The notes under the pieces were generated by a model, which was given only the letters and a program-made list of their open reading frames with translations, was not told the origin of the DNA and searched no databases. From a virus: a stretch of DNA of 64,000 bases. The stretch is taken from the IMG/VR virus record IMGVR_UViG_3300037782_000115, positions 32,001-96,000 of that record. The stretch is one strand, 5' to 3'. Each line of letters starts with the position of its first letter. The first letter of the stretch is position 1. Made by a program: the position numbers and the translations under genes. Positions 5,715 through 52,245 of the stretch are shown here, piece after piece.

Positions 5715-6308
5715 ATGGACGCCACAATCACTGAGCTATATGACGCACACGAGAGGGGCGAGCTTACAGAGCACGACGCCCGATGGAAGACGGTGTGCAA
5801 ACACCTCGGCCGGATTGCAGCGGCGACCGTGGCGGGGAGCTCAAAGGGGCTCTATGGGGAGCCGTTCAACACAGCGGTCATGGCGGTGGAGACCGAGCTG
5901 CTTCGGAAGTTCATCAAGAAGAAGTTCGGAGGCCGGAGCCAGGACACGATTGACAGCCTCTTGGGCACAACCGCGCGCAACGACCTGTACGCACACTTCC
6001 GCAGGAGCAAGTCGCCCACACCGGTCTACTTCGACGGCGCCGAGGAGACGTGGGAGAGCCCGAAGTCGACGCCAGAACACGAACACGACATATTCGGCGA
6101 AGTCAGGAAGATGATGCGGCCCGTCCGGTTTGTCGAATACCCGCACGCAAAGGAGATCGTCCTCGCCGCGTTTCTAGCCACAGGAAAGATGCCAGACTCG
6201 CGTGTACTTGAACTCGCCGGTGTCAAAAAAACAGAGAGGCAGGCTGTCCTGAACAGCATCATCTTTAGCATAAACAACGCCATGATGGGGCTGTGTAGTG
6301 CTGCATAA
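5715..6308 (+). CDS. Divergent ECF-sigma-factor-like protein
   Basis: SLLGTTARNDLYAHFRR resembles the ECF region 2 motif (WL..IARN...D..RR); 197 aa. Confidence 0.45.
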   Translation: MDATITELYDAHERGELTEHDARWKTVCKHLGRIAAATVAGSSKGLYGEPFNTAVMAVETELLRKFIKKKFGGRSQDTIDSLLGTTARNDLYAHFRRSKSPTPVYFDGAEETWESPKSTPEHEHDIFGEVRKMMRPVRFVEYPHAKEIVLAAFLATGKMPDSRVLELAGVKKTERQAVLNSIIFSINNAMMGLCSAA

Positions 6309-7065
6309 ACTGCTACAAACACCCGAGAGGCGGGGGACGATTGCACCCGAGATCATCGAGTTCTTCGCGACTCATGATGAGGGCGGCGATATGCTCGAGA
6401 AGTTCATCCTGGCATTCGCGGGTACGTCATTCACAATGCCGGACCACAGCTTCTTCGCGAGACTAAACAGAGACAAAGAACTCATTCGGGCAGTCAAAAG
6501 AGACGGTCGGCCCAAGGCGGTTATCGCCGCAATTACAAGCGCCGGAGTCAGCTATGCCTATCTCCAGAATCTGTGGATCGCCGTTGAGGGACGCATGCTC
6601 CAAGGGCCTGAGATCCACGGCGGCCGGGCCGTGGCGATCGAAGCCGCCAAAGACCTGTTGCTCGAGCACCCAACGGCCACCAACGACATAGTCTCGATAT
6701 ACACACTCAACGCAAGAGAGAGGGCTGAGTGCATGCTCAAGGTGTCCGCGGCAAGGGCTGGAAACACAAACACGCCGAAGTCAAAGCCTGTCACCACGCC
6801 GAGAAGCGGGAACACGAGGGCGGCAAGGGGCGACACGGGTGTGGAGGCCGCGATGCGGAAACGCATCACGGGCACCCAGAAAACGATCCTTGCCGCCCTC
6901 CGGGGCGCGAAGAAGCGTCTCGGCGGCGAAGAAATCAGGGACGCGATCGGCGGGTCGAGCGTGCCAACACGCTCGCTCAACAGCCTGCTCGACCTTGGGC
7001 TCATCAGCGAGTCCAAAGCGGGCAAGTTCAAATGCACAAACCTCGGAGCGGAGGTCTCGAAATGA
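6298..7065 (+). CDS. Hypothetical protein with C-terminal winged helix
   Basis: ITGTQKTILAALRG...LGGEEIRDAIGG...SLNSLLDLGLISESKAGKFKCTNLG. Confidence 0.65.
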   Translation: MLHKLLQTPERRGTIAPEIIEFFATHDEGGDMLEKFILAFAGTSFTMPDHSFFARLNRDKELIRAVKRDGRPKAVIAAITSAGVSYAYLQNLWIAVEGRMLQGPEIHGGRAVAIEAAKDLLLEHPTATNDIVSIYTLNARERAECMLKVSAARAGNTNTPKSKPVTTPRSGNTRAARGDTGVEAAMRKRITGTQKTILAALRGAKKRLGGEEIRDAIGGSSVPTRSLNSLLDLGLISESKAGKFKCTNLGAEVSK

Positions 7066-7970
7066 AGGTCGAGGGAACGCCGTCGCCATGGTTTGGTGGG
7101 AAGTGGGAGATGCCGTGGCTTCTCGACCTATTCCCTGACCCAGAACAAATCCACACGTATGTCGAGCCCTACGGGGGCATGTGCGGCCTCATGCTCAGGA
7201 AGATGCCTTCCCCGGTCGAGGTTTACAACGACGTCAACAGCGCGTTGGTCACCTTCTGGAAGGCTGTCAGGCTCTACCCTGACGAGCTTGCTCGCGCGGT
7301 CGAGCTCACACCGATCAGCTACGAGGAGTGGAGCAGCGCCAAGGCAGCGCTGCGAGAGCTCAAGGACACAGACGGACTCGACAAGGATCAGATCGTTGAG
7401 GTCGCCAGGCAGTTCATCGTCATGTCCAGACAATCGATGGCCGGCGCTCCCGGCAGATCGTGGCAGGCCTCGGTCACCCATAGCCGGCGAGGAATGGCAT
7501 CGACGTGCTCGGCGTGGCTTAACCTCCCCGAAACCGTGGTGCAGTGTGGGCAGCGGTTCAAGTCGGTGCAGATTGAGCACAGGCCGGCTGTGCATGTGAT
7601 TAAGAAGTACGACACACCAAAGACACTGTTCTACCTCGACCCCCCCTACATGCCCGAAACATGTAAGACGGGGGTGTACTCGGCCTCCGGCGGCGCCGAG
7701 ATGAGCCCGGCCGACCACGCCGTAATGCTTCGTGCAATCAGGGATATCGAGGGATCGGCGGTATTGTCGGGATATGACAGCGACCTGTACAACAAATGGC
7801 TCGACAGATGGGGGTGGCAAACCAAGGAAATCGAGGTCCCGTGCAGATCCGCGGTCACTACATCGGGGTCAGTCGCCGAGAGGACAACCCGGATCGAGAA
7901 GGTTTGGTATAAATACAACGACGGAATGAAGCCGGAAGCGGCAAAAACCCTGTTCTGTGACAACGGATAG
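7062..7970 (+). CDS. Dam/D12-class N6-adenine DNA methyltransferase
   Basis: PWFGGK, YVEPYGG, EVYNDVN, FYLDPPY, LSGY; GGAGG RBS, ATGA overlap. Confidence 0.92.
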   Translation: MKVEGTPSPWFGGKWEMPWLLDLFPDPEQIHTYVEPYGGMCGLMLRKMPSPVEVYNDVNSALVTFWKAVRLYPDELARAVELTPISYEEWSSAKAALRELKDTDGLDKDQIVEVARQFIVMSRQSMAGAPGRSWQASVTHSRRGMASTCSAWLNLPETVVQCGQRFKSVQIEHRPAVHVIKKYDTPKTLFYLDPPYMPETCKTGVYSASGGAEMSPADHAVMLRAIRDIEGSAVLSGYDSDLYNKWLDRWGWQTKEIEVPCRSAVTTSGSVAERTTRIEKVWYKYNDGMKPEAAKTLFCDNG

Positions 7971-7991: not shown

Positions 7992-8414
7992 GTGAACATC
8001 AGACTGAATGTTGGCGAAACGGCGCGTATCAGCCTCGAGACCAAGGGCGGCACACTCGAGGGCAACTACGAATGGGAATCATTGCCTCCCGGCTCGGTGA
8101 TCAATCTGGATCCGCAAGAATCGGAGGGCACGCGCGTCGCCGAAGTCACCGCCAACGGGGTGGGCACAGCGACCTTCCGCGCCCGCGGCATGATCGCACC
8201 GGCCAGCGGCGGCCCTGCCGTGTCCGACTACATCGACATCACTGTGCAAGTGGTCAAGGGACCGCACACGCGCGGCGCAGTCGAGTATTCCGAGCCGGCC
8301 AGGCAGTTCGACGGCACGCATGAGTCCGGGCACGCCGGGCCGGATGAGCCGACGGGCGGCGAAGACGGTGCCGAAGCCGGCAGCGGAGACGGCGCCGAGA
8401 GCGGAACCGATTGA
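7992..8414 (+). CDS. Ig-like (Big-type) beta protein with acidic tail
   Basis: NIRLNVGETARI...YEWES...VTANGVGTATFRA...IDITVQV; AAGGAG RBS. Confidence 0.6.
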   Translation: MNIRLNVGETARISLETKGGTLEGNYEWESLPPGSVINLDPQESEGTRVAEVTANGVGTATFRARGMIAPASGGPAVSDYIDITVQVVKGPHTRGAVEYSEPARQFDGTHESGHAGPDEPTGGEDGAEAGSGDGAESGTD

Positions 8415-8417
8415 CCC

Positions 8418-8449
8418 ATGACCGCGGCCGCGAAAGCAGCCGCGGTCAT
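8418..8449 (+). terminator. GC hairpin (terminator or attenuator) immediately 5' of the ABC ATPase start
   Basis: ATGACCGCGGC...GCGAAAGC...GCCGCGGTCAT with GAAA loop. Confidence 0.55.
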
Positions 8450-8451
8450 TT

Positions 8452-9141
8452 ATGGTAACAAAGATCAGGCTGTCGAGGTCGTTCAAGACCCGTGTTGAAC
8501 CGACGCCACTGGTGGTCCAGTGCGCCGGCATGTTCGGCATAGGCGTGGACGAGGACATCGACATCACGCTGTACTCCGGCCTCCAGGTCACGCTTGGCGA
8601 GGGCCGGGTGATCTACATCACCGGAGACAGCGGGGCTGGCAAGTCGTGCCTGCTCAGAGATATTGTGTCCCACAAGGAAACAAACGCGAAGTTCCGGGTA
8701 GTCTCCGACCGCGACATCGAAGACATGCCGGACAAGCCGCTAGTCGATCAATTCGGCGACATGCCGCTAATCAAGATCGGTGAGCTTCTGGCGTTTGTCG
8801 GCATATCAGAGGCGTTTGTCTATCTACGAAAGCCCAAAGAACTATCAGACGGTCAACGCTATCGGTTCAAGCTGGCGATGATGATCTATGAATCGATCAA
8901 GGAGACCGAGGACAAAAGAACGCCGCTGATCACCGTCGACGAATACTTGGCGTTCCTCGACCGGGAGACAGCGAAGAATGTGGCCTATCAAACCAGGAGG
9001 GCGTCGAGCAAATACGGATTCTGTGTTGTGGTGGCGACCACACACGCGGACATAGCCGAAGACCTACAAGCGAACCTCACAATCAAGTTACAAATGAACA
9101 TGCCGGCGGAGATCAAGAACACCGCCCTGGCCGGGGACTAA
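8452..9141 (+). CDS. Stand-alone ABC-type ATPase (ATPase half of the COG2401-like ABC-GNAT family)
   Basis: Walker A GDSGAGKS; signature LSDGQRYRF; Walker B ITVDEY; VATTH; no permease nearby. Confidence 0.88.
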   Translation: MVTKIRLSRSFKTRVEPTPLVVQCAGMFGIGVDEDIDITLYSGLQVTLGEGRVIYITGDSGAGKSCLLRDIVSHKETNAKFRVVSDRDIEDMPDKPLVDQFGDMPLIKIGELLAFVGISEAFVYLRKPKELSDGQRYRFKLAMMIYESIKETEDKRTPLITVDEYLAFLDRETAKNVAYQTRRASSKYGFCVVVATTHADIAEDLQANLTIKLQMNMPAEIKNTALAGD

Positions 9142-9144
9142 GGA

Positions 9145-9897
9145 TTGAACCACGACATCCTCATCACGACCATACCAGGCCGCGCCGAAGAGGTGTTGCG
9201 CATTCAACTCGATCTCAGGAACGCCCTACTTGGATGCCGCGGCAAACACAGGGTCACAGTGATCTGTGACGGTGCGCTAACCGAAAAAATGTACGACAAC
9301 CTGATAACAACCGGGATCCACCGGCTCGTTGTGCATAAAGACCCACAAGGCCTGGCGTTCTCGATCAGCGAGTGGGCGATGTATCTCAGGCTGACCGAGC
9401 ACTACTACGGCGGCGCTAGCGAGAGAACCAGTCAGGAGATGAGCTTCACACCAGAAGTTTGCACGATGCTGCAAGACGATGTGGAACTCAACCACGACAT
9501 GTTCCCGTGGCTCGAGAAGAACCACGAAGAAGTGTTCCGTGCGGCCAACTGGTTTAGCGGCTATGACGCCAAAGAACACAAGAGGCAGGGCACAATCAAC
9601 GTCGGCGGCGTACCGCTGGTCGCAAGAGACATGGGGTGTGCGGTCAATCTCACAGCCATGTACCGGACGTGGATGAGGCTCACCCCAATCCCCAAAACAT
9701 TCGGCCCCCAGCGCGTAAGCAAGGGCGGGAACGACTACGGGCCGGATGTAGAAAGAGGGAACCCGTCCCGCACACCAAGGCTCGGGTCGAGAGTGGAGCA
9801 CTGGCTCCAGGGCGATAGCCCCAATTCTGGGCCGCTCAGGACTGTAATATACCCTGGCGGCGTCACACACAAAGGGGAGTCGACTTGGAACCGATAG
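9145..9897 (+). CDS. Putative GT-A fold glycosyltransferase
   Basis: ILITTIPGR, VTVICDG, TMLQDDV (DxD-like), C-terminal VTHKG. Confidence 0.55.
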   Translation: MNHDILITTIPGRAEEVLRIQLDLRNALLGCRGKHRVTVICDGALTEKMYDNLITTGIHRLVVHKDPQGLAFSISEWAMYLRLTEHYYGGASERTSQEMSFTPEVCTMLQDDVELNHDMFPWLEKNHEEVFRAANWFSGYDAKEHKRQGTINVGGVPLVARDMGCAVNLTAMYRTWMRLTPIPKTFGPQRVSKGGNDYGPDVERGNPSRTPRLGSRVEHWLQGDSPNSGPLRTVIYPGGVTHKGESTWNR

Positions 9898-10622
9898 TCA
9901 TCGTAATGACCAGCGCCAGGCGCGGCCCAGACACTGTCGGCCACAGGGGCCAGAAGCCGCCCGAGCGGGATGTGGACTACACATCAGGATGCGTCGAGGA
10001 GCTTCGAAAGGCGAGCTCGAGGCCGCTCGAAATCCACCTGTTCCCGACCGCGCCAGACGCGCCCAGGGACGTGGGCGAGGATGTGACGCACTACAACCAC
10101 AAAACGATGGGTCTTGTTGAGAACAGCGACCGCATGATGCGATATGTTGCCTCACTCGACAAGCCCGCAATCCAGTGCCAAGACGACATCGTCTTGTGTC
10201 GCAACGCGATCGATCGCGTAGTTCAGGTGGTTAGCGAGGGGCGTCCGCCGAACGCGGGGCTGATCTCGTTCTACACACCAATCGCGGCCGGCCAACCGAG
10301 GGGGCTGTACCACTACCCAGCGGAGGCGCTTTATGCCACCATGCTCAACGTCTGGTACCCCAGCGCAGCCAGCGAGTTTGTGTTCGAGTGGTGGCACCCG
10401 AAGCGACTCTGTTACGGTGACCAAAAAACAGGCCCTCGCGGCGTCAAGGGCTGGGACCTTATGGTTCAATATTGGCTGAAATGGTCAAAGAAGTACCGGG
10501 CATACAGGCACATCCCGTGTCTTGCCCAGCACCGAGGCGTTGTATCGGCGAGCGCCAAGGCCGTAGGGCAAAGGACGTCGATGAACTTCAAGGGCGTCCA
10601 ATACGACGCCACGAAAGGCTGA
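9885..10622 (+). CDS. Putative GT-A fold glycosyltransferase
   Basis: VIVMTSARR, IQCQDDIVL, GWD, PCLAQHRGVVS. Confidence 0.65.
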   Translation: MEPIVIVMTSARRGPDTVGHRGQKPPERDVDYTSGCVEELRKASSRPLEIHLFPTAPDAPRDVGEDVTHYNHKTMGLVENSDRMMRYVASLDKPAIQCQDDIVLCRNAIDRVVQVVSEGRPPNAGLISFYTPIAAGQPRGLYHYPAEALYATMLNVWYPSAASEFVFEWWHPKRLCYGDQKTGPRGVKGWDLMVQYWLKWSKKYRAYRHIPCLAQHRGVVSASAKAVGQRTSMNFKGVQYDATKG

Positions 10623-10625
10623 CCA

Positions 10626-11549
10626 ATGGAAAATGAAACAGTGATCTATGGCCCGTATGTCGGCGAATTTGGTTGGGAGGTCCACGCGTGGGCACCGCAC
10701 GTCTGCACCGACATTTCTCTGCACGCGGAAGAGGGGCACACAGAGAGGCGGATCATCGTCTGCCCGGTCGGCTCGGAGGCCCTGTACTCAAGGGCCGTAG
10801 AACACGGCGCGGAGTTGTTCACCATCAACAGGCCCGAGGGCGTGTCGGCCGAGTGGATGAGCTTGTCGCCGAACAGCCCAACGGACGCCATCGTCGCGAT
10901 CAAGAGCGAGATCGAGGCGAGGTTTGGGGCTGTCAGATACCACGAGCCGCAGCCGGGATCGAAGTACGCGCAGGACATCACCGACAACCGGGTCGATAGC
11001 CCCAGGCACGACTACTCTGTCAGTGGCCCGCACGGTCCCGACGAGAGCAAGTACCTCGGCCCCGGCAAGAAGAGCCAGAAGATTGTGATCGGCGTCGTAG
11101 CCCGCGGGCGCAAGGACCTCGGGCAGGAACGAAACTTCGCCGGCTGGGACGAGCTTGTCTTGAGCCTCAGAAATAGGATGCCCGGGTGTGAGGTCCGCAG
11201 TCTTGGCACAGAGGCGGGCAACAGGCACTTCGGCGAGATCGATCTTCGAACCTACCCCGACGCCGGCCTCTTCATCACCAACGCGCGGCGTTGCCACCTG
11301 CTTGTCGGCGAATCCAGCGGAACGATGCACTTGGCGGTGGCGGCCGGCGTCCCGTCTGTGGTCTTCGGCCCAGACCGCGGCCGCGAGCGGTATCGTCGAG
11401 ACAACGTCTGTGGTGTGCCGATGATGTTCATCCCAAGCACCGAGCCCAATCCTGTTATAGTGGCAAGGCAGGTGCACCGCCTCATTCAGACCCTCCGGGG
11501 CAGCAACGAATACATCAACCAACTGGAGCCGCGCGGAAATGTCGACTAA
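10626..11549 (+). CDS. GT-B fold glycosyltransferase, GT9 (heptosyltransferase)-like
   Basis: GPYVGEFGWE; LLVGESSGTMHLAVAAGVPSVVFGP. Confidence 0.75.
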   Translation: MENETVIYGPYVGEFGWEVHAWAPHVCTDISLHAEEGHTERRIIVCPVGSEALYSRAVEHGAELFTINRPEGVSAEWMSLSPNSPTDAIVAIKSEIEARFGAVRYHEPQPGSKYAQDITDNRVDSPRHDYSVSGPHGPDESKYLGPGKKSQKIVIGVVARGRKDLGQERNFAGWDELVLSLRNRMPGCEVRSLGTEAGNRHFGEIDLRTYPDAGLFITNARRCHLLVGESSGTMHLAVAAGVPSVVFGPDRGRERYRRDNVCGVPMMFIPSTEPNPVIVARQVHRLIQTLRGSNEYINQLEPRGNVD

Positions 11550-12144
11550 ATACGACCCAAAGACGTACTTCACCAAACGGTGCGAGAGGCAGGGAAGCCA
11601 ATATGTCACGAGGCACGGCGCCACGCCCGAGTTCTTCCAGCAACAGATGAAGGACTTCGCCTCACACCTGCCAAACCTGCCGGCGGACGTGAGAGTGCTC
11701 GACTACGGGTGCGGCGTTGGCAGGCTTCTCGACCAGCTTGCGGGCTTCGACGAGTATGCGGGCGTCGACATCGTGGAGAAGGCGATCGAAATCGCCCACA
11801 CCGCTCACGACATGGAGCACTACGGCGGCAGGGCCCGGTTCTACGCCCTTGGAGACGACGGCAGGATCCCGTTCGACGACAACCACTTCAACCTGTCGTG
11901 TGCGATCACCGTGTTCCAACACATCCCAGAGGACCTGGTGCTCGACGTGCTCGACGAATTCAAGAGGGTGTCCCTTGGCCGCGTGATGATCATCGACACG
12001 AACGAGGACAGCACTGCGGCCCACATGTTCAAAAGGCCGCCTGCGTTCTACACAGACCTGCTCGGGCTCAGTAGGCCTGAGCACAAGATCATCGACGTGG
12101 ATCATCCCGGCTCACACTACGTGCTGCATGGTGAGATCAAATGA
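11539..12144 (+). CDS. Class I SAM-dependent methyltransferase
   Basis: VLDYGCGVGR, GVDI, IPFDDNHFNL..AITVFQHI. Confidence 0.9.
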   Translation: MSTKYDPKTYFTKRCERQGSQYVTRHGATPEFFQQQMKDFASHLPNLPADVRVLDYGCGVGRLLDQLAGFDEYAGVDIVEKAIEIAHTAHDMEHYGGRARFYALGDDGRIPFDDNHFNLSCAITVFQHIPEDLVLDVLDEFKRVSLGRVMIIDTNEDSTAAHMFKRPPAFYTDLLGLSRPEHKIIDVDHPGSHYVLHGEIK

Positions 12145-12722
12145 GCTTCATTGTCACAGGACTCGGCAGATCGGGAACGACATGGTTGGCCGCGCAGCTG
12201 GCCAAGGGCGACCACATTGTGGGCCACGAGGGGAAGAAAGACGCCTCTCGCGGCCCACACGACCTGGTAAGGGCCTACAACGAGAGGCGAAGGGGAAGAC
12301 ACGCCTACGGCGAGGTCAACAGCTATCTGAGACACTGTTTACACCTTGTCGACACCGACGTGGCCGCGTTGCTCATCAGGCACCCGGACAGTCTCTGGGC
12401 TTCCGCTTACCGGTGGAGAAAAAAGAGGGGCGATGTTGACCTAAAGAAGCTCAACAAAGACGTCCAGGACGGCCTCTGGATCATCGCAAGGTTCCACGGG
12501 TACGGCGTGCCCGTGTTCCGAATCGAAGACCTGTCGGCCGACAAGGACGAGGTCTGCCGAATGGCTGACTACCTTGGGGTCTGTGTCAACAAGGACCAGA
12601 TCAAACTCGATGCGATGAACACATCAACACACTGCGAAGTCCCGCCCGTCGGCGACCAGTTCGAGTGGTTCGCAAACAAGTTCTATTCGGCCACCTCGCC
12701 GCGGGCCGCGTCGGGCTCGTAA
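12141..12722 (+). CDS. Sulfotransferase-like P-loop protein
   Basis: FIVTGLGRSGTTWLA (5'-PSB-like), GHE, LLIRHP, FRIEDL. Confidence 0.7.
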   Translation: MSFIVTGLGRSGTTWLAAQLAKGDHIVGHEGKKDASRGPHDLVRAYNERRRGRHAYGEVNSYLRHCLHLVDTDVAALLIRHPDSLWASAYRWRKKRGDVDLKKLNKDVQDGLWIIARFHGYGVPVFRIEDLSADKDEVCRMADYLGVCVNKDQIKLDAMNTSTHCEVPPVGDQFEWFANKFYSATSPRAASGS

Positions 12723-12761
12723 GCACCAGAGGGAGGGCTCGGGAACGGGCTGGGCCGTAAT

Positions 12762-13559
12762 ATGCAAATCACAATCACAGCAGAGACGCGGGAGGTTGAG
12801 CCTGTCAAGAAGCCGTGCTCACTGCTTGGCGAGTGCATTATCGAAGACGGCGAATCGGCGGACTACAAGAAGCTCGCCGGTTACCACTATCGCGACACCG
12901 GCTTCCCCCCGGGCGTGCACCACATTTACCGCGCCAGACACGCCGCGTCCGGCAAAACCGTTGGTGTTATCGTTTACGCAGTGCCGGCGCTGAACCTTGC
13001 TGTGCGAAACAAGATATTCGGTGATCGGTATAAGATCGGCGGCAGTGTGGCGACAAATGTGCCGAGGTCTCAGCGACTCAACGCCGAAATGGAGCTCATC
13101 ATCCGCGTGGTGGTGCACCCGACGTTCCGCGGCACAGGACTCGGCCGAAGGATCGTCGCCGAAACCCTACCGCTGAGGCCCTACAGATACATCGAGGCCT
13201 CAGCGGCAATGGGCAACATCAACCCGTTCTTCGAGAGAGCGGGCATGACGCCGGTCCAGGTCTCCAAGACCGAGCTGACCGTCAGGGTGCTCGGCGCACT
13301 CAGGTCGTTTGGGATGACTGACGAGGAGATTGCCAACTGGCGTGCGATTGTTGACAAGCTCGAGTCACTTCAAGAAGAGAAGCGTGCGTGGCTGTGGAAA
13401 GAGCTCGAGAGATACGCGACAAGGTGGCTCAAGAGCAGGACCGGGCGCAAAATACACATCACGCCGGAGCTCGCCGCCAGACGCGTGGCAGCGAATGCCC
13501 TGATCCAGACGACGTACTTCATCTACGAGAACAAACACCTCGCGCCAAAGGCTAATTAG
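12762..13559 (+). CDS. GNAT-family acetyltransferase (acetyltransferase half of the COG2401-like family)
   Basis: LAGYHYR; IIRVVVHPTFRGTGLG acetyl-CoA motif; AAMGNINPFFERAGM. Confidence 0.85.
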   Translation: MQITITAETREVEPVKKPCSLLGECIIEDGESADYKKLAGYHYRDTGFPPGVHHIYRARHAASGKTVGVIVYAVPALNLAVRNKIFGDRYKIGGSVATNVPRSQRLNAEMELIIRVVVHPTFRGTGLGRRIVAETLPLRPYRYIEASAAMGNINPFFERAGMTPVQVSKTELTVRVLGALRSFGMTDEEIANWRAIVDKLESLQEEKRAWLWKELERYATRWLKSRTGRKIHITPELAARRVAANALIQTTYFIYENKHLAPKAN

Positions 13560-14001
13560 GCGGCGAAATGTCCAGCCGCACACAGTCGATGGGAGCAAGA
13601 AACTCGTGGGTGGGAAACAAGCCAGACAGCGGCGACTTGTCCATGTCTTTGGTGTTAAACGGCCGACGCAACACCACACCCCTGTCGCCCACGTCCGGCG
13701 TTTTACAGACCACGAATCCGCCTATGTGGCGGCCCATCTGGGCGTCATGGACCTCGACCCGATCGCCCTCACTGAGCGGCCTTTTCATATGCAGGCACAT
13801 AACAGCCTCTTCAATAACGGACGGCCGCCAATACAACGCAGTATCTGTGTCGGAATCTCTGCCCACAACCCGCGGCCTGGTGATCTTTGTGATGTATCCA
13901 TAGACGGCGTGAGACACAGAGTACCGGTGGCTGTCTTCGCGGGCCTCAACAAGGTTGACCTTAAACGCGCCGGCGGTGTACGAAACATCCTTCTCAGGCA
14001 T
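13552..14001 (-). CDS. Hypothetical protein
   Basis: MPEKDVSY..., coupled to the ASCH gene; last gene of the leftward arm. Confidence 0.6.
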   Translation of the reverse strand: MPEKDVSYTAGAFKVNLVEAREDSHRYSVSHAVYGYITKITRPRVVGRDSDTDTALYWRPSVIEEAVMCLHMKRPLSEGDRVEVHDAQMGRHIGGFVVCKTPDVGDRGVVLRRPFNTKDMDKSPLSGLFPTHEFLAPIDCVRLDISPPN

Positions 14002-14449
14002 GACAAGCTTCTCCGATGGTTTCAAAGTGAGACAGGAGCTCGGGCGATAACGCAGAGCGACCAACATAGAACACCCGTTGCCTGCCAGGCAAAGGGACGG
14101 GCTTGCACGCCATGGGATTGCGCAAGAGCCAGCAAACGGGCCCGAACGACCAGGGGCAGTTCTGCCGAGATGGCGATGGCATGAGTGTGTGCCCATACAC
14201 CTCAACACTGCCAAGGATGGCCCCGGCCGGGTGTGCCTCGAGTATTTCTGGCCACAGGCGGCGAAGATCATCGAGCGTGTTGGCATCGATCTTCGCCTTC
14301 TTCTTCGATGCGTGCACCAGCATGCGGAAAGAGCCGTTGACCATAAGACTCTTGGGTGGCGGCCACGACCTGTTCTCGACAGGCTTCTTGCCGGACAGAA
14401 TGGCAGAGGCCCACGGCTGGTGTACAGAGAGCGTGGGGAATAAATCCAT
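13994..14449 (-). CDS. ASCH domain protein
   Basis: TLSVHQPWASAILSGKKPVENRSW, LVHAS, GAILGSV, PW.FGP..W. Confidence 0.9.
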   Translation of the reverse strand: MDLFPTLSVHQPWASAILSGKKPVENRSWPPPKSLMVNGSFRMLVHASKKKAKIDANTLDDLRRLWPEILEAHPAGAILGSVEVYGHTLMPSPSRQNCPWSFGPVCWLLRNPMACKPVPLPGRQRVFYVGRSALSPELLSHFETIGEACHA

Positions 14450-14464
14450 GATGGATCTCCGTTG

Positions 14465-14836
14465 CTAAAACTCGCAATTTGTCCTGGTGAGCATGACCGC
14501 GTCGGCCATTCTGTCCAGCACATCTTGGCCCAGCCCGCACGGCGCCCCGTCTCGGTGGGCGATGTTCTCGGCGGCGAAGAACGCGTAAACCTGCTCGGGC
14601 GACTGGAACGCGTGGACCCTGCTGACCCCAAGGCGGGCAGCGCCGTCCAAGAGCTCTGAGACCTCTGGTGTCCGCTCGACCTCCTCAAACTCGATAGAGA
14701 TAGAAACGGGCCTCACGTGCGATTCAAGGCGGCCTACGCGGGCCCGGTTGATTTCGATGAGCATGTCGCAGGCGGCGTCGGCCGCAGAGAACACGGACGC
14801 GGTGTGGGGCAAGCTAACCGTTATATTCCTGTTCAA
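14465..14836 (-). CDS. Hypothetical protein
   Basis: TTG start after GAAGGAG; in operon context. Confidence 0.55.
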   Translation of the reverse strand: MNRNITVSLPHTASVFSAADAACDMLIEINRARVGRLESHVRPVSISIEFEEVERTPEVSELLDGAARLGVSRVHAFQSPEQVYAFFAAENIAHRDGAPCGLGQDVLDRMADAVMLTRTNCEF

Positions 14837-19260: not shown

Positions 19261-20061
19261 CTATGTCCTCGCCAGCTCGAGAGGCGAGTTTTTCGAAATC
19301 GTTCCGGAACTCCGAGAGACGGCCGTTTGGCGGGGTGACCATCCGGGGAACGGCAAGGAACCATTTTGGGTCAGCTTTTTCACCATAGCGTCCAAGGTCT
19401 CTTGCGAAATCTTTAGCACACCCGCCCGGGTCCATTTCTCGTACAACTGCTCTGGGTGGGGGAGGGCGTTTACGAACAGGGCGGGATCCGCCATGATCTG
19501 GCTTGTTATCACTCTTCTCCATGTCTCTGCGGCCTCCCGTTCATCATCGCTCTGGCCAGGCGCGCCGATCGGCAAAAGCGGCGTCGAATAGCTCGCGATC
19601 AGCCTGTTGTACAGCGCCTCAGCAATAGCAGCGTCTGAGTCGCCGCATTCTGCAAACACACAGTAAGTCGGGTGTTTGATGTACTCATCCGGCTCTTCGT
19701 CCGAGTGCAGCGACACCAAATGCAAATGCGTCCCGGCCACCTGCCGGGCCGACGGCCGCCACCGGCCTTGCCACACGCCCGTATACTCAGCGTCCTTGCC
19801 ACGAAAGAGTATCCGGTGCCTGGAGTGCTCATGCTCTGCCGAACACCCGGCGGCAAACGCCCTCACAGCCTGCTCTGGTCCGAGGATGCTCATGGCGTAG
19901 ACGGACCGGGGCATTGCTGAACGGCGGGTGCCTGCGAAATCGTAGTACGGAGCCGAAAGAACACCATCACACCACGCGCGGACCTTTGCGCGACCCGACG
20001 CCGCGCCATATGAGTAGTGGGTCTGCGGCGGAAGCAAGAACACCTCAATCAGTTGTCGCAC
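19261..20061 (-). CDS. Hypothetical protein
   Basis: GTG start after GGGAG; YSTPLLP...W motif; lies between MTase and helicase. Confidence 0.65.
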   Translation of the reverse strand: MRQLIEVFLLPPQTHYSYGAASGRAKVRAWCDGVLSAPYYDFAGTRRSAMPRSVYAMSILGPEQAVRAFAAGCSAEHEHSRHRILFRGKDAEYTGVWQGRWRPSARQVAGTHLHLVSLHSDEEPDEYIKHPTYCVFAECGDSDAAIAEALYNRLIASYSTPLLPIGAPGQSDDEREAAETWRRVITSQIMADPALFVNALPHPEQLYEKWTRAGVLKISQETLDAMVKKLTQNGSLPFPGWSPRQTAVSRSSGTISKNSPLELART

Positions 20062-20314
20062 GACAATCTCCCATAGCAACAAGGGCGAACCCACAGTGAG
20101 AACACAGGCCGTCCCGATAAGCCGAAATCTCCGCTTTCGTGCGAACCTCGTTCACACACCGACACCTGAAACACAAGGGGCTGTACGGGCCACTGCGGAT
20201 CAGACGGCGTCTTCGATAACCAAAGACGGCGTGGTACATCACGGCGCCTAGAAAATAGACGGTCGCGATAGGCGTCGCGAACAAGAAACACGAGATGAGA
20301 ATAATCTCAATCAT
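20045..20314 (-). CDS. Small membrane protein with Cys motifs
   Basis: N-terminal hydrophobic helix; CFRC, CSHC. Confidence 0.5.
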   Translation of the reverse strand: MIEIILISCFLFATPIATVYFLGAVMYHAVFGYRRRRLIRSGPYSPLCFRCRCVNEVRTKAEISAYRDGLCSHCGFALVAMGDCRATTD

Positions 20315-50655: not shown

Positions 50656-52245
50656 ATGAAATCAACAGGCCTGATCGTCGACAACTTTGCTGGCGCCGGT
50701 GGCGCGAGCGTGGGCATCGAGAGCGCTATGGGAAGGAAGGTCGATTACGCGATCAACCACGACCCAGAGGCGATAGAGACCCACGTTGCGAATCACCCGA
50801 ACACCAAGCACTTGATCGAGGATGTCTTCGATGTCGACCCGCGTGAGCTATGTGCTGGGCGACCGGTCGACCTAGCCTGGTTCAGCCCAGACTGCACACA
50901 CCATTCACGAGCAAAAGGCGGCAAGCCACGCGACAACAAGCGGCGAGGTCTCGCGTGGGTTGTCATTCGGTGGGCCGCAACAGTTCGTCCCAAAGTCATC
51001 ATGCTCGAGAATGTCCCGGAGTTCCAGACGTGGGGCCCGCTCAACAGCGACGGACAGCCGTGCAAACGCCGGACTGGAGAAACATTTAGGTCGTGGGTCG
51101 GCGAGCTGCGCCAACTCGGGTACGACGTGCAATGGCGAGAGCTCGTTGCCGCAGACTATGGCGCACCGACGATCCGCAAACGACTCTTTCTCGTCGCCAG
51201 GTGCGACGGCGAACCGATCCGGTGGCCGACGCCGACGCACGCGCCGCGCCACAAGGCGGTCGTTCTTGGCCTTGAGCCATGGAGGTCGGCGGCAGACTGC
51301 ATTGACTGGTCGCTCCCGATGCTCTCGATCTTTGCCACGCCGGACGAGGCCAAAGAGTGGGCCAGGGCCAACGGGGTGTCGGCGCCAAGGCGTCCGCTCG
51401 CAGACGCAACGCTGCGTCGCATCGCCCGGGGCGTGATGCGGTTTGTTGTCGAGTCGGATGACCCGTTCGTAGTGACGTACGCGCAGCATGGTGGATCATC
51501 ACGCAGCCCATCAGAGCCGATGCACACGATCACAGCCAGCGGCAAGGACCAGAACTGCATCGCAGTCCCAACCCTGATCCAGACCGGGCACGGCGAGAGA
51601 AAAGGTCAGAAGCCGCGCAGCCTCGACATACACGCCCCCCTCGGCACCTGTGTCGCCGGTGGGTGCAAGCACGGCCTGGTGTCGGCGATGTTGTCCAAGC
51701 ACAACGGAAAGACCACGGGGCAGAGGGCGTCAGATCCGCTTCACACCATCGCCGGCAACATCAACAAAAGTCTTGTCGCCTGCTCTCTCGAGAAGATGCG
51801 TGGCACTGGCCGCGGCGGCAGCCTGCGAGAACCTGCGCCTACGCAGACCGCGGGAGGAAACCACGCCGGCCTCGTGTGCGCGTTCTTGCAGAAGTATTAC
51901 GGCAGCACAAAAGATGGCGCCCCAATGGATTCTCCGATGCACACAGTGTCGTGCACCGATAGATTCGGACTGGTCACCGTGGCCGGGCATGACTACATGA
52001 TCGGCGATATTTCAATGAGGATGCTACAACCGCACGAGCTGTTGAAGGCTCAGTTCGGACGATTCGCCAGTGGCTACACATTGCTCGGCACCAAACGCAG
52101 GCAGGTGTCGTCCGTGGGCAACAGCGTATGCCCAGAGGTTGCGTACGCACTCGTATCGGCGAACTTCTTGAGGAACAACGTGTCATCTCATGTCGGAATC
52201 CACGCAGATGCGAAGTCGCCCACGGCAAAGCAGGTGATCTCATGA
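50656..52245 (+). CDS. DNA (cytosine-5)-methyltransferase, phage type
   Basis: DNFAGAGG, SPDCTHHS, ENVPEF, YGAPTIRKRLF, repeated P..TI target-recognition units, GNSVCP. Confidence 0.95.
   Translation: MKSTGLIVDNFAGAGGASVGIESAMGRKVDYAINHDPEAIETHVANHPNTKHLIEDVFDVDPRELCAGRPVDLAWFSPDCTHHSRAKGGKPRDNKRRGLAWVVIRWAATVRPKVIMLENVPEFQTWGPLNSDGQPCKRRTGETFRSWVGELRQLGYDVQWRELVAADYGAPTIRKRLFLVARCDGEPIRWPTPTHAPRHKAVVLGLEPWRSAADCIDWSLPMLSIFATPDEAKEWARANGVSAPRRPLADATLRRIARGVMRFVVESDDPFVVTYAQHGGSSRSPSEPMHTITASGKDQNCIAVPTLIQTGHGERKGQKPRSLDIHAPLGTCVAGGCKHGLVSAMLSKHNGKTTGQRASDPLHTIAGNINKSLVACSLEKMRGTGRGGSLREPAPTQTAGGNHAGLVCAFLQKYYGSTKDGAPMDSPMHTVSCTDRFGLVTVAGHDYMIGDISMRMLQPHELLKAQFGRFASGYTLLGTKRRQVSSVGNSVCPEVAYALVSANFLRNNVSSHVGIHADAKSPTAKQVIS

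What the first reader, a model, noticed from the sequence alone, without database searches (positions are those of the whole stretch)
8452..13559. Split ABC-ATPase/GNAT pair bracketing a glycosyl-, methyl- and sulfo-transferase cassette: candidate new hypermodification pathway
Seen: tightly coupled genes in the order ABC ATPase, GT-A, GT-A, GT9-like GT-B, SAM MTase, sulfotransferase-like, GNAT, about 0.5 kb after a Dam-family methylase and the replication genes, with no transporter. Known: ABC-ATPase + GNAT (COG2401-like) usually occur fused or adjacent and have been proposed as phage DNA-base-modifying enzymes. Inference: the two halves flank a five-gene tailoring cassette that builds an acylated, methylated and possibly sulfated oligosaccharide on DNA bases, or on virion proteins such as the adjacent Ig-like protein (7992-8414). 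I know of no characterised sulfated-glycan DNA modification.
Basis: partly seen in the sequence, partly recalled or inferred. Interest (0 to 1): 0.8.

Follow-up and report, generated by a model that had tools for sequence, protein, structure and literature searches.

The report
Sugar-tailoring genes inside phage ABC/GNAT pair
A pond phage carries five sugar-modifying enzyme genes, one of them a small sulfotransferase, between two genes that normally sit side by side in hundreds of phages; the five look like a separate portable insert, not part of one new DNA-modification pathway.

Summary
The seven co-oriented, tightly packed genes at 8452-13559 are real. Other first-stage notes of this scan cover the same stretch.

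**Gene identities**
- Well supported: ABC ATPase, SAM methyltransferase, and a compact PAPS-type sulfotransferase (both PAPS-binding motifs; AF2 pLDDT 94; best fold matches are sulfotransferases).
- Supported as leads: a GNAT-like gene, a GT-A-fold gene (o4) and a GT9-like GT-B gene (o5).
- Unresolved: o3, with only weak GT-A hints.

**The ABC/GNAT pair**
- It is conserved on its own. In 82 of 83 phage loci the GNAT gene follows the ABC gene, with a median spacer of 414 bp (maximum 1,430 bp) holding 0-3 small variable ORFs.
- It is one fused ORF in 45 Bathyarchaeia-type loci and two viral loci.
- None of 160 related loci carries any cassette gene.

**The cassette**
- A GT9-like/methyltransferase/sulfotransferase trio recurs in four unrelated low-GC viral or metagenome contigs that have no ABC/GNAT within the sequence held.
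- The genome lacks a thymidylate-synthase homologue, and no TET-like oxygenase was detected. Known DNA glycosylation needs one of these.

**Verdict**
This is an autonomous glycan-tailoring cassette inserted into a variable spacer. Its acceptor is unknown, with DNA the less likely option. It is a new variant of known kinds and of moderate interest.

The parts
6729..7970 (+). D12-class (Dam-type) N6-adenine DNA methyltransferase. The true start is probably near 7062-7090, because the first ~112 codons overlap ORF 6298-7065.
   Evidence: Pfam MethyltransfD12 4.9e-13 over residues 121-360; phrog_56 4.8e-47 over residues 112-408
7992..8414 (+). 140-aa acidic protein (pI 4.4) of unknown function with a Gly/Asp/Glu-rich tail. 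The 'Ig-like' label is unsupported.
   Evidence: No Pfam, PHROG or NCBIfam hit; no homologue in 80 related loci
8426..8447 (+). GC-rich hairpin (7 pairs in the scan; a 9-bp inverted repeat by eye, spanning about 8421-8448) ending 4 nt before the ABC ATG. Possibly a weak terminator, attenuator or processing site.
8452..9141 (+). Soluble ABC-type ATPase, first gene of the conserved ABC/GNAT module
   Evidence: Pfam ABC_tran 2.9e-8, phrog_293 1.5e-19; catalytic motifs invariant in alignment A1; 486 IMG/VR and 194 GTDB-genome relatives
9145..9897 (+). o3: 250-aa protein of an orphan family with an invariant QDD motif and a Rossmann-like beta-alpha-beta N-terminal half. Possibly GT-A; unresolved.
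   Evidence: Four homologues at 45-47% identity, two of them on ~110-kb contigs; AF2 pLDDT 47; weak Foldseek hits to GT-A enzymes only
9885..10622 (+). o4: GT-A-fold glycosyltransferase-like protein with a QDD (DxD-type) motif. The start may be the ATG at 9906.
   Evidence: ESM Atlas structural matches, TM 0.70-0.75, to GT2/GT25/GNT-I clusters that are mostly viral; one homologue at 41% identity
10626..11549 (+). o5: GT9-like (heptosyltransferase-type) GT-B glycosyltransferase-like protein
   Evidence: ESM Atlas feature score 0.98 and TM 0.72-0.76 to viral 'GT9' clusters; Pfam Glyco_transf_9 E 0.15 on residues 221-248; the same segment aligns with the GT9-positive F2 family
11539..12144 (+). 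Class I SAM-dependent methyltransferase of small-molecule/sugar type
   Evidence: Methyltransf_25 7.4e-12, Methyltransf_11 1.4e-10; 28% identical (E 5e-13) to the MTase next to the sulfotransferase in L085
12141..12722 (+). Compact (193 aa) PAPS-type sulfotransferase. RSGTTW is the 5'-phosphosulfate loop, R80...S88 the 3'-phosphate motif, and the conserved H29-E30 a candidate base.
   Evidence: 127 family representatives; 24/73 hit Sulfotransfer_3; the three best profile-to-PDB hits (all E<=0.01) are sulfotransferases, as are all but about three of 28 at E<=1; AF2 pLDDT 94; the 20 best VIA matches are sulfotransferases, Z 11.1-13.2 over ~170-190 residues
12762..13559 (+). GNAT-like acyltransferase, second gene of the conserved ABC/GNAT module. 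Motif A is RVVVHPTFRGTGLGRR.
   Evidence: phrog_886 9.2e-23; Acetyltransf_7 1.8e-4; 33-39% identical to the GNAT halves of fused ABC-GNAT ORFs that pass Pfam cut-offs

Best explanation
The stretch combines two separate things in one transcription unit. (1) Genes 8452-9141 and 12762-13559 are the widespread viral ABC-ATPase/GNAT module: an ATP-driven acyltransferase that works as a pair or as one fused protein. It has been predicted in the literature, but never shown, to acylate a DNA base. (2) Between them lies a five-gene, fully cytoplasmic sugar-tailoring cassette: two GT-A-like proteins, a GT9-like GT-B, a SAM methyltransferase and a minimal PAPS sulfotransferase. This cassette landed in the spacer that in other phages holds 0-3 small variable ORFs. 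Inferred mechanism: the glycosyltransferases build a short glycan from host nucleotide sugars on an intracellular acceptor. The methyltransferase and sulfotransferase then cap it with methyl and sulfate, using host SAM and PAPS. My best guess at the acceptor (about 0.35) is a protein, most likely a virion protein, as in mycobacteriophage and chlorovirus capsid glycosylation. A host envelope precursor comes next (about 0.25), and DNA after that (about 0.15). Shown here: gene identities at the stated levels, the conservation and fusion of the pair, the uniqueness of the insert, and the portability of the trio. Inferred: every chemical step and the acceptor.
For: Pair: the GNAT gene follows the ABC gene on the same strand in 82/83 viral loci. 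The spacer has a median of 414 bp and a maximum of 1,430 bp, and holds 82 small ORFs in 32 families, the longest 194 aa. The pair is fused in L046 and L058, where both Pfam domains are above cut-off, and in 45/80 genome loci. No homologue of o3, o4, o5, the MTase or the sulfotransferase appears in any of the 160 loci. Cassette autonomy: GT9 (Pfam 2.6e-9), an MTase homologue and a sulfotransferase homologue lie adjacent in L085. The same three families occur in L091, L092 and L093 in other orders, with no ABC/GNAT within the sequence held, at most +/-8 kb. Cassette age: an o3 homologue (47%) and a sulfotransferase homologue (45%) each have a 109,878-bp longest contig, probably the same one, so a diverged ~110-kb relative probably keeps at least two cassette genes. 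Sulfotransferase reality. No TM segments. Against DNA by known routes: no ThyA homologue and no oxygenase found. Operon-like junctions with no internal promoter or terminator signal above chance.
Against: Physical nesting inside a functionally coupled gene pair, with translational coupling to both, is what a single pathway would also look like. The block lies among replication and DNA-methylase genes, as DNA-modifying glycosyltransferases often do (bioRxiv 2023.12.21.572611). o3 is unidentified. The o4 and o5 assignments rest on language-model and predicted-structure matches only. Homology of o5 to the GT9 family of the other trios is not shown beyond one motif (E 0.009-0.02). The absence of a 5mYOX enzyme had no positive control. 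No data bear directly on the acceptor.
Confidence: 0.55

Rival explanations
1. One reading: one integrated pathway. ABC/GNAT places an acyl group on a DNA base (or acylates the sugar), and the five inner enzymes extend it into a methylated, sulfated oligosaccharide on phage DNA as an anti-restriction hypermodification.
For: The cassette is nested in and translationally coupled to a pair predicted to modify DNA bases. Three to four DNA methyltransferases elsewhere in the genome show heavy investment in DNA marking. Phage glycosyltransferases near replication genes are often DNA-directed. The proteins are soluble, with no export machinery.
Against: The pair works without any sugar genes in 160 loci, and the trio occurs with no ABC/GNAT in the sequence held. 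No ThyA homologue is present and no 5mYOX was detected to supply the hydroxyl that every characterised DNA glycosylation needs. No sulfated DNA base is known. The GT-B here is GT9-like, not T4 BGT-like.
Confidence: 0.13
2. Host-envelope remodelling. The soluble GT9-like and GT-A-like enzymes, the methyltransferase and the sulfotransferase modify LPS core, capsule or another lipid-linked precursor at the cytoplasmic face. This would block superinfection or keep progeny from re-adsorbing to debris.
For: GT9 and GT25-type folds are classic LPS-core enzymes. The ABC/GNAT relatives used here include phage-plasmid-size contigs, so lysogenic conversion is conceivable, and a resolvase is present. From background knowledge, not tested here: rhizobial LPS and Nod factors are sulfated by cytoplasmic sulfotransferases, and NodH appears among the weak PDB hits.
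Against: There is no flippase, Gtr-type or acyltransferase-3 membrane component as in known seroconversion modules. The genes sit in an early/replication block, not near an integrase or immunity region. The host is unknown.
Confidence: 0.2
3. The ABC/GNAT module acts on RNA or protein, not DNA. For example it could be a TmcA-like ATP-dependent acetylation of a tRNA, or acetylation of a packaging or host protein. The cassette would still be unrelated cargo.
For: ATPase plus GNAT is the logic of tRNA(Met) cytidine acetyltransferase (background knowledge). The genome and phage nickie encode tRNA-Met. The module lies next to the large terminase gene in 103 loci, which would also fit a packaging-linked protein target.
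Against: No sequence similarity to TmcA was seen. The ParB/DNA-methylase neighbourhood in 73/80 viral loci points to DNA. This is pure analogy.
Confidence: 0.1

Closest known systems
ABC-ATPase + GNAT module of SSU5-, nickie- and RHEph10/V1VFA-S-like phages (phrog_293 + phrog_886; 'COG2401-type'), predicted by Iyer et al. 2013 and Iyer et al. 2021 to acylate a DNA base
   Same: The same two protein families in the same order and on the same strand. The ATPase catalytic motifs and GNAT motif A are conserved, and a DNA methylase lies upstream.
   Different: The spacer is 3.6 kb with five enzymes instead of 0-1.4 kb with small ORFs. No ParB-like genes lie upstream and no terS/TerL downstream; the terminase here is GpA-type and ~48 kb away. 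The GNAT protein lacks the last ~30 residues of phrog_886 and is closer to the archaeal fused forms.
Phage-encoded sulfotransferase-family proteins (e.g. Synechococcus phages S-SRM01 and S-SCSM1, OM43-phage MVGs, Xanthomonas phage FoX4), function unknown
   Same: PAPS-type sulfotransferase fold encoded by tailed phages. These are the best BFVD structural matches. The literature states that their role is unclear (PMC10580990).
   Different: At 193 aa this protein is much shorter than typical ones of 225-310 aa. There is no tblastn match to any of 50,697 cultured-phage records. It belongs to a separate 127-cluster family that pairs with a SAM MTase and a GT9-like gene.
Virion glycosylation cassettes: mycobacteriophage Che8/Corndog-type glycosyltransferase (+ O-methyltransferase) genes and the chlorovirus PBCV-1 A064R GT-GT-methyltransferase
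   Same: Clusters of soluble viral glycosyltransferases with a methyltransferase, no transporter, acting in the cytoplasm on viral proteins (background knowledge; papers listed; the PBCV-1 link is).
   Different: No sequence similarity was shown. A sulfotransferase is added here. The block lies among early/replication genes. No glycosylated virion protein is known for this phage.
Phage DNA glycosylation pathways (T4 alpha/beta-GT on 5hmC; C5-MT + 5mYOX + GT clusters; ThyA-homologue 5hoC + arabinosyltransferases)
   Same: Phage GT-A and GT-B enzymes encoded near DNA replication and methylation genes. A C5 cytosine methylase exists in this genome at 50656-52245.
   Different: There is no ThyA homologue, and no 5mYOX was detected. 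The C5 methylase is 37 kb from the cassette. The GT-B is GT9-like rather than BGT-like. None of those pathways contains a sulfotransferase ('sulf' occurs 0 times in the 2023 preprint).

Membership tests
ABC ATPase superfamily | Walker A, ABC signature (LSGGQ-like), Walker B D-E, H-loop | tested here: met
   GDSGAGKS, LSDGQRYR, VDEY and TTH are all invariant across four phages. Pfam ABC_tran scores 34.8 bits against a cut-off of 25.
Viral ABC-ATPase/GNAT module (Iyer et al. predicted DNA-base acylation system) | ABC ATPase gene adjacent to or fused with a GNAT-domain gene of the phrog_886 type | tested here: met
   Both families are present on the same strand, though 3.6 kb apart. Adjacency or fusion is the rule in relatives.
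Viral ABC-ATPase/GNAT module (Iyer et al. predicted DNA-base acylation system) | Neighbourhood of ParB-like or DNA-methylase genes and the terminase | tested here: inconclusive
   A D12 methylase lies upstream, but there is no ParB, helicase or TerL homologue of the SSU5 type within window 1-24000. The synteny holds in 73/80 viral loci.
Viral ABC-ATPase/GNAT module (Iyer et al. predicted DNA-base acylation system) | Acyl modification of a DNA base | not testable with these tools
   This is a prediction only, also in the literature.
GNAT superfamily | Acyl-CoA-binding motif A (R/Q-x-x-G-x-G/A) and a Pfam GNAT match | tested here: inconclusive
   Motif RGTGLG is present and R123/G124/G126 are conserved in 36 sequences. 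Pfam Acetyltransf_7 scores 22.2 bits, below the cut-off of 27. Fused homologues pass Acetyltransf_1/10.
PAPS-dependent sulfotransferases | 5'-phosphosulfate-binding loop (K/R-S-G-T-T) and 3'-phosphate motif (R...S) | tested here: met
   RSGTTW lies at residues 10-15. R80 and S88 are invariant in 73 family members, and the motifs align with PKSGT and RNPKD..S of SULT7A1.
PAPS-dependent sulfotransferases | Sulfotransferase fold | tested here: met
   The AF2 model has pLDDT 94. VIA Z is 11.1-13.2 to TPST1/2, CurM/OLS ST, NDST1, 3-OST and StaL over about 170-190 of 193 residues. The first nucleotide kinase comes at rank 21 with Z 11.1, covering only ~145 residues.
PAPS-dependent sulfotransferases | Pfam gathering score | tested here: not met
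   Sulfotransfer_3 scores 17.5 bits against a cut-off of 27. 24/73 homologues match at E<0.01.
Glycosyltransferase family 9 (o5) | Pfam Glyco_transf_9 match; GT-B fold | tested here: inconclusive
   Pfam scores 11.8 bits against a cut-off of 22. The Atlas model has TM 0.72-0.76 to clusters auto-named GT9, in which 11-14% of members carry PF01075.
GT-A fold glycosyltransferases (o4) | Rossmann-like GT-A fold with a DxD motif | tested here: inconclusive
   QDD is conserved in the two known sequences. Atlas TM is 0.70-0.75 to GT2/GT25/GNT-I clusters. There is no Pfam hit.
GT-A fold glycosyltransferases (o3) | Rossmann-like GT-A fold with a DxD motif | tested here: inconclusive
   QDD is invariant in 5 sequences. 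The model has pLDDT 47. Foldseek hits to GT-A enzymes are only E 0.008-0.2 with TM <0.3.
Class I SAM methyltransferases | Pfam match and motif I (VLDxGCGxG) | tested here: met
   Methyltransf_25 scores 46.2 bits against a cut-off of 27, and VLDYGCGVG is present.
Known phage DNA glycosylation pathways | An enzyme that makes a hydroxylated base (ThyA homologue or 5mYOX/TET) | tested here: not met
   PF00303 is absent from the complete 107-kb genome, with 10 positive controls. PF12851 is absent but without a positive control. No 2OG oxygenase was found among 74 further ORFs at E<=1e-4.

The most novel reading that the evidence does not exclude
The cassette and the ABC/GNAT pair cooperate. The ATP-driven GNAT installs a hydroxyl- or amine-bearing acyl group on a DNA base, in the way Mom does. 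The glycosyltransferases, methyltransferase and sulfotransferase then extend it, giving the first sulfated glycan hypermodification of DNA and the first assigned function for phage sulfotransferases.
Probability: 0.1. Interest if true: 0.9.

Novelty: new variant of a known kind. Interest (0 to 1): 0.5.

Why it matters
There are three points of value.

1. **A natural experiment.** An enzyme cassette is nested inside the uncharacterised ABC/GNAT module. That module is present in hundreds of phages and phage-plasmid-size contigs, including SSU5-like elements of enterobacteria, and occurs as a fused protein in Bathyarchaeia-type genomes.
2. **A concrete handle on phage sulfotransferases.** The literature calls their role unclear. 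Here a compact 180-220-aa family emerges that repeatedly travels with a SAM methyltransferase and a GT9-like glycosyltransferase.
3. **A cautionary result.** Bracketing by two related genes need not mean one pathway, because the spacer is a general insertion hot spot.

If the minority reading were true, it would add sulfated glycans to the chemistry of DNA hypermodification.

Tried and rejected
I could not inspect the ~110-kb ENA/Logan contigs that carry the o3 and sulfotransferase homologues.
- **o5** has no relative by word-indexed search. o3 and o4 have none in IMG/VR, and o3 none in JGI metagenomes.
- **Cultured phages:** tblastn of o5, the window sulfotransferase and the L085 sulfotransferase found nothing. 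Megablast of the 10-kb region against the same records also found nothing.
- **o3:** the AF2 model was too poor to use. Profile-to-PDB searches for o3 and o4 gave nothing. o3 and o4 are not detectably related to each other; hhalign aligns only the QDD region.
- **PADLOC** gave only generic ATPase and methyltransferase hits.
- **P-loop kinase reading of 12141-12722** (for example a 5-hmdU DNA kinase analogue) was rejected. The Walker-A lysine is replaced by Thr, the 3'-phosphate motif is invariant, and kinases align over a shorter span.
- **Literature:** 'COG2401' and the COG name gave no papers. Iyer et al. 2013 is not held.
- **Sulfotransferase family loci:** two alignments were too divergent for the locus finder. 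One metagenome scan failed and was repeated. There was no relative in GTDB genomes with the one usable pattern.
- **Sequencing runs:** no RNA holder was listed. The pond-metagenome contigs showed no variant lacking the cassette, but cover is patchy, so this says little.
- **Tet_JBP** search had no positive control.

Full report
**Setting**

The window is bases 32001-96000 of a complete 107,112-bp viral contig with direct terminal repeats. The contig has about 60% G+C. It is found at near-100% identity in six pond-metagenome runs of 2020. Upstream of the finding lie a primase, a DnaB-type helicase, two unknown ORFs and a D12 (Dam-type) methylase. Downstream the coding strand switches.

**Observation**

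Seven + strand ORFs fill 8452-13559. Junctions are 3 nt, a 13-nt overlap, 3 nt, an 11-nt overlap, a 4-nt overlap and 39 nt. Most have Shine-Dalgarno-like motifs. There is no internal promoter or terminator signal above the chance level. All seven show coding-type codon-position G+C, and none has a TM-like segment.

| Gene | Coordinates | Assignment | Support |
|---|---|---|---|
| ABC | 8452-9141 | ABC ATPase with all catalytic motifs | Firm |
| o3 | 9145-9897 | Unresolved | Orphan family of five sequences; invariant QDD; beta-alpha-beta N-terminal half; model pLDDT 47; only weak GT-A fold hits |
| o4 | 9885-10622 | GT-A fold | Lead only: ESM Atlas structure neighbours |
| o5 | 10626-11549 | GT9-like GT-B | Lead only: ESM Atlas neighbours and a GT9-type C-terminal motif |
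| MT | 11539-12144 | Class I SAM methyltransferase | Firm |
| ST | 12141-12722 | PAPS-type sulfotransferase | Strong, detailed below |
| GNAT | 12762-13559 | GNAT-like acyltransferase | Motif and family level: phrog_886 with a clear GNAT motif A |

The sulfotransferase call deserves detail, since Pfam alone gave only E 0.005.
- A full HMMER search found 127 family representatives of 120-310 aa, mostly 170-230 aa, plus one unrelated 1,092-aa hit.
- 24 of 73 of these hit Sulfotransfer_3.
- In the family-profile search of the PDB, the three best hits (all those at E<=0.01) are sulfotransferases. So are all but about three of the 28 at E<=1. Both PAPS-binding motifs align.
- The AF2 model has pLDDT 94.
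- The 20 best VIA matches are sulfotransferases, with Z 11.1-13.2 over about 170-190 of 193 residues. Nucleotide kinases cover only about 145 residues.
- The best viral structural matches are annotated phage sulfotransferases.

**The bracketing pair is a module of its own**

tblastn showed that both genes co-occur in SSU5-like phages, nickie-like phages, Rhizobium RHEph10/V1VFA-S-like phages, Stenotrophomonas phages and others. Annotated records show the order ParB-like, ParB-like or methylase, ABC, small ORF(s), GNAT-like, small ORF, terS-like, TerL.

An IMG/VR scan found 486 relatives. Among the 80 best:
- The GNAT-like gene follows the ABC gene on the same strand in 82 of 83 informative loci, counting the three annotated phage records.
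- The stop-to-match spacer has a median of 414 bp and a maximum of 1,430 bp.
- The spacers hold 82 small ORFs falling into 32 families, the longest 194 aa.
- Two viral loci carry a single fused ABC-GNAT ORF that passes the Pfam cut-offs for both domains.

A scan of GTDB genomes found 194 more relatives. Of the best 80, 45 are fused ORFs, nearly all in Bathyarchaeia MAGs. The others are split and lie on phage-plasmid-size contigs of Proteobacteria and in Planctomycetota.

The window's GNAT protein is closest (33-39% identity) to the fused archaeal forms and the Phycisphaerae split forms.

The literature contains the prediction, without experiment, that this GNAT-plus-ABC-ATPase system makes an uncharacterised acyl modification of a DNA base (PMC7824862, citing Iyer et al. 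2013). I could not read the 2013 paper.

**The five inner genes are an insert**

None of the 160 related loci contains a homologue of any of the five genes (tblastn E<=1e-4). The window therefore stands alone, with a 3.6-kb spacer of five 193-307-aa enzymes.

The sulfotransferase family could be followed elsewhere.
- In the metagenome contig L085 (38% G+C; carries a ribonucleotide reductase and a PolIII alpha gene) it is preceded, with the same 4-nt overlap, by a homologue of the window's methyltransferase (28% identity, E 5e-13).
- Before that methyltransferase lies a protein that passes Pfam Glyco_transf_9 (2.6e-9).
- The same three families recur in viral contigs L091, L092 and L093 in different orders.
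- No ABC or GNAT homologue lies within the sequence held for these four loci, at most +/-8 kb.

The o5/MTase/sulfotransferase core thus resembles a portable phage trio. One caveat applies: homology of o5 itself to that GT9 family is shown only for one motif.

An o3 homologue (47% identity) and a sulfotransferase homologue (45%) each have a 109,878-bp longest contig, probably the same one. The cassette is therefore probably old and retained in a diverged relative.

**Target**

All characterised DNA glycosylations act on a hydroxyl group supplied by a thymidylate-synthase homologue (5hmC, 5hmU, 5hoC) or by a 5mYOX/TET enzyme.

What the genome has and lacks:
- No thymidylate-synthase homologue (positive controls).
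- No TGT/DpdA.
- No Tet_JBP match (but without a positive control).
- No 2OG oxygenase among 74 further ORFs scanned with Pfam.
- It does encode a C5 cytosine methylase (50656-52245), the D12 methylase and a DUF6094 methylase.

DNA glycosylation by a known route is thus unsupported, though a new route through an acyl group cannot be excluded.

The proteins are soluble, and no flippase or Gtr-type component is present. By analogy with demonstrated viral systems, I consider a protein acceptor, probably a virion protein, the most likely single option. Those systems are the mycobacteriophage glycosyltransferase plus O-methyltransferase clusters and chlorovirus A064R. A cytoplasmic envelope precursor comes next, and DNA after that. 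None of these is tested.

**Comparison and novelty**

- The ABC/GNAT module is known as a prediction.
- Phage sulfotransferases are known as annotations of unknown role (PMC10580990).
- Phage GT/MTase clusters are known.
- New here: the nesting of an enzyme cassette in the ABC/GNAT spacer. Also new is the delineation of a compact sulfotransferase family linked to a methyltransferase and a GT9-like gene across unrelated phages. That family has no match in the cultured-phage collection.

I classify the finding as a new variant of known kinds.

**Verdict**

o3 and the 'Ig-like' neighbour are the exceptions.
- The single-pathway DNA-hypermodification reading is possible but is the minority reading, at about 0.1-0.15.
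- Interest is moderate, at 0.5.

Noticed in passing
L102-L173 (GTDB genome loci), L046:7899-9404, L058:5143-6609: The ABC ATPase and GNAT domains are one fused ORF of ~490-500 aa in 45 of 80 genome loci, nearly all Bathyarchaeia MAGs, and in two IMG/VR contigs. The module therefore spans bacterial and archaeal (pro)viruses.
   Followed up: partly
103 loci among L005-L084 and L094-L173: A TerL homologue lies on the same strand next to the ABC/GNAT module, with a median of 1.2 kb after the GNAT end. In several Bathyarchaeia loci it lies just upstream instead. ParB-like genes lie upstream in 73/80 viral loci. This tight link to the packaging genes may bear on the module's function. The window phage lacks the synteny.
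   Followed up: partly
L085:299-2741; L091:7938-11058; L092:7272-9190; L093:3495-5413: A GT9-like + SAM methyltransferase + compact sulfotransferase trio recurs in different gene orders in low-GC (30-39%) viral or metagenome contigs. L085 adds a second methyltransferase and a GT-B fragment, next to RNR and PolIII alpha genes.
   Followed up: partly
L086-L089 (around 7354-10234 in L086): In four other viral loci the sulfotransferase homologue is flanked by different conserved families: ~214 aa upstream, and ~154 aa and ~307 aa downstream.
   Followed up: no
window 8426-8447: A GC-rich hairpin (7 pairs in the scan; a 9-bp inverted repeat by eye) ends 4 nt before the ABC start codon, between the 140-aa ORF and the seven-gene block. 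It could be a weak terminator, attenuator or processing site.
   Followed up: no
window 6298-7970: The long D12 methylase ORF (6729-7970) overlaps ORF 6298-7065 by 337 nt. The family matches begin at residue ~112-121, so the methylase probably starts near 7062-7090 and 6298-7065 is a separate gene of unknown function.
   Followed up: no
window 50656-52245; also around 19261-20094: A C5 cytosine DNA methylase (FAGAGG and ENV motifs) and a DUF6094-type methyltransferase add to the D12 enzyme. The phage therefore carries at least three DNA methylases. Pfam also found a resolvase, an HNH endonuclease (120-428), and DUF2201/VWA and AAA_5 (MoxR-like) domains among the scanned ORFs.
   Followed up: partly
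window 13552-14688 (-): The 378-aa ORF that overlaps the end of the GNAT gene is Arg/Ser/Pro-rich and looks like a wrong-frame artefact. The real leftward genes probably start at 13994-14449 (phrog_3193).
   Followed up: no
L122 and L157: In a Poriferisphaera chromosome (L122) the GNAT gene lies about 1 kb upstream of the ABC gene, so the order is reversed. In a Phycisphaeraceae contig (L157) no GNAT homologue is found within 8 kb downstream of the ABC gene.
   Followed up: no
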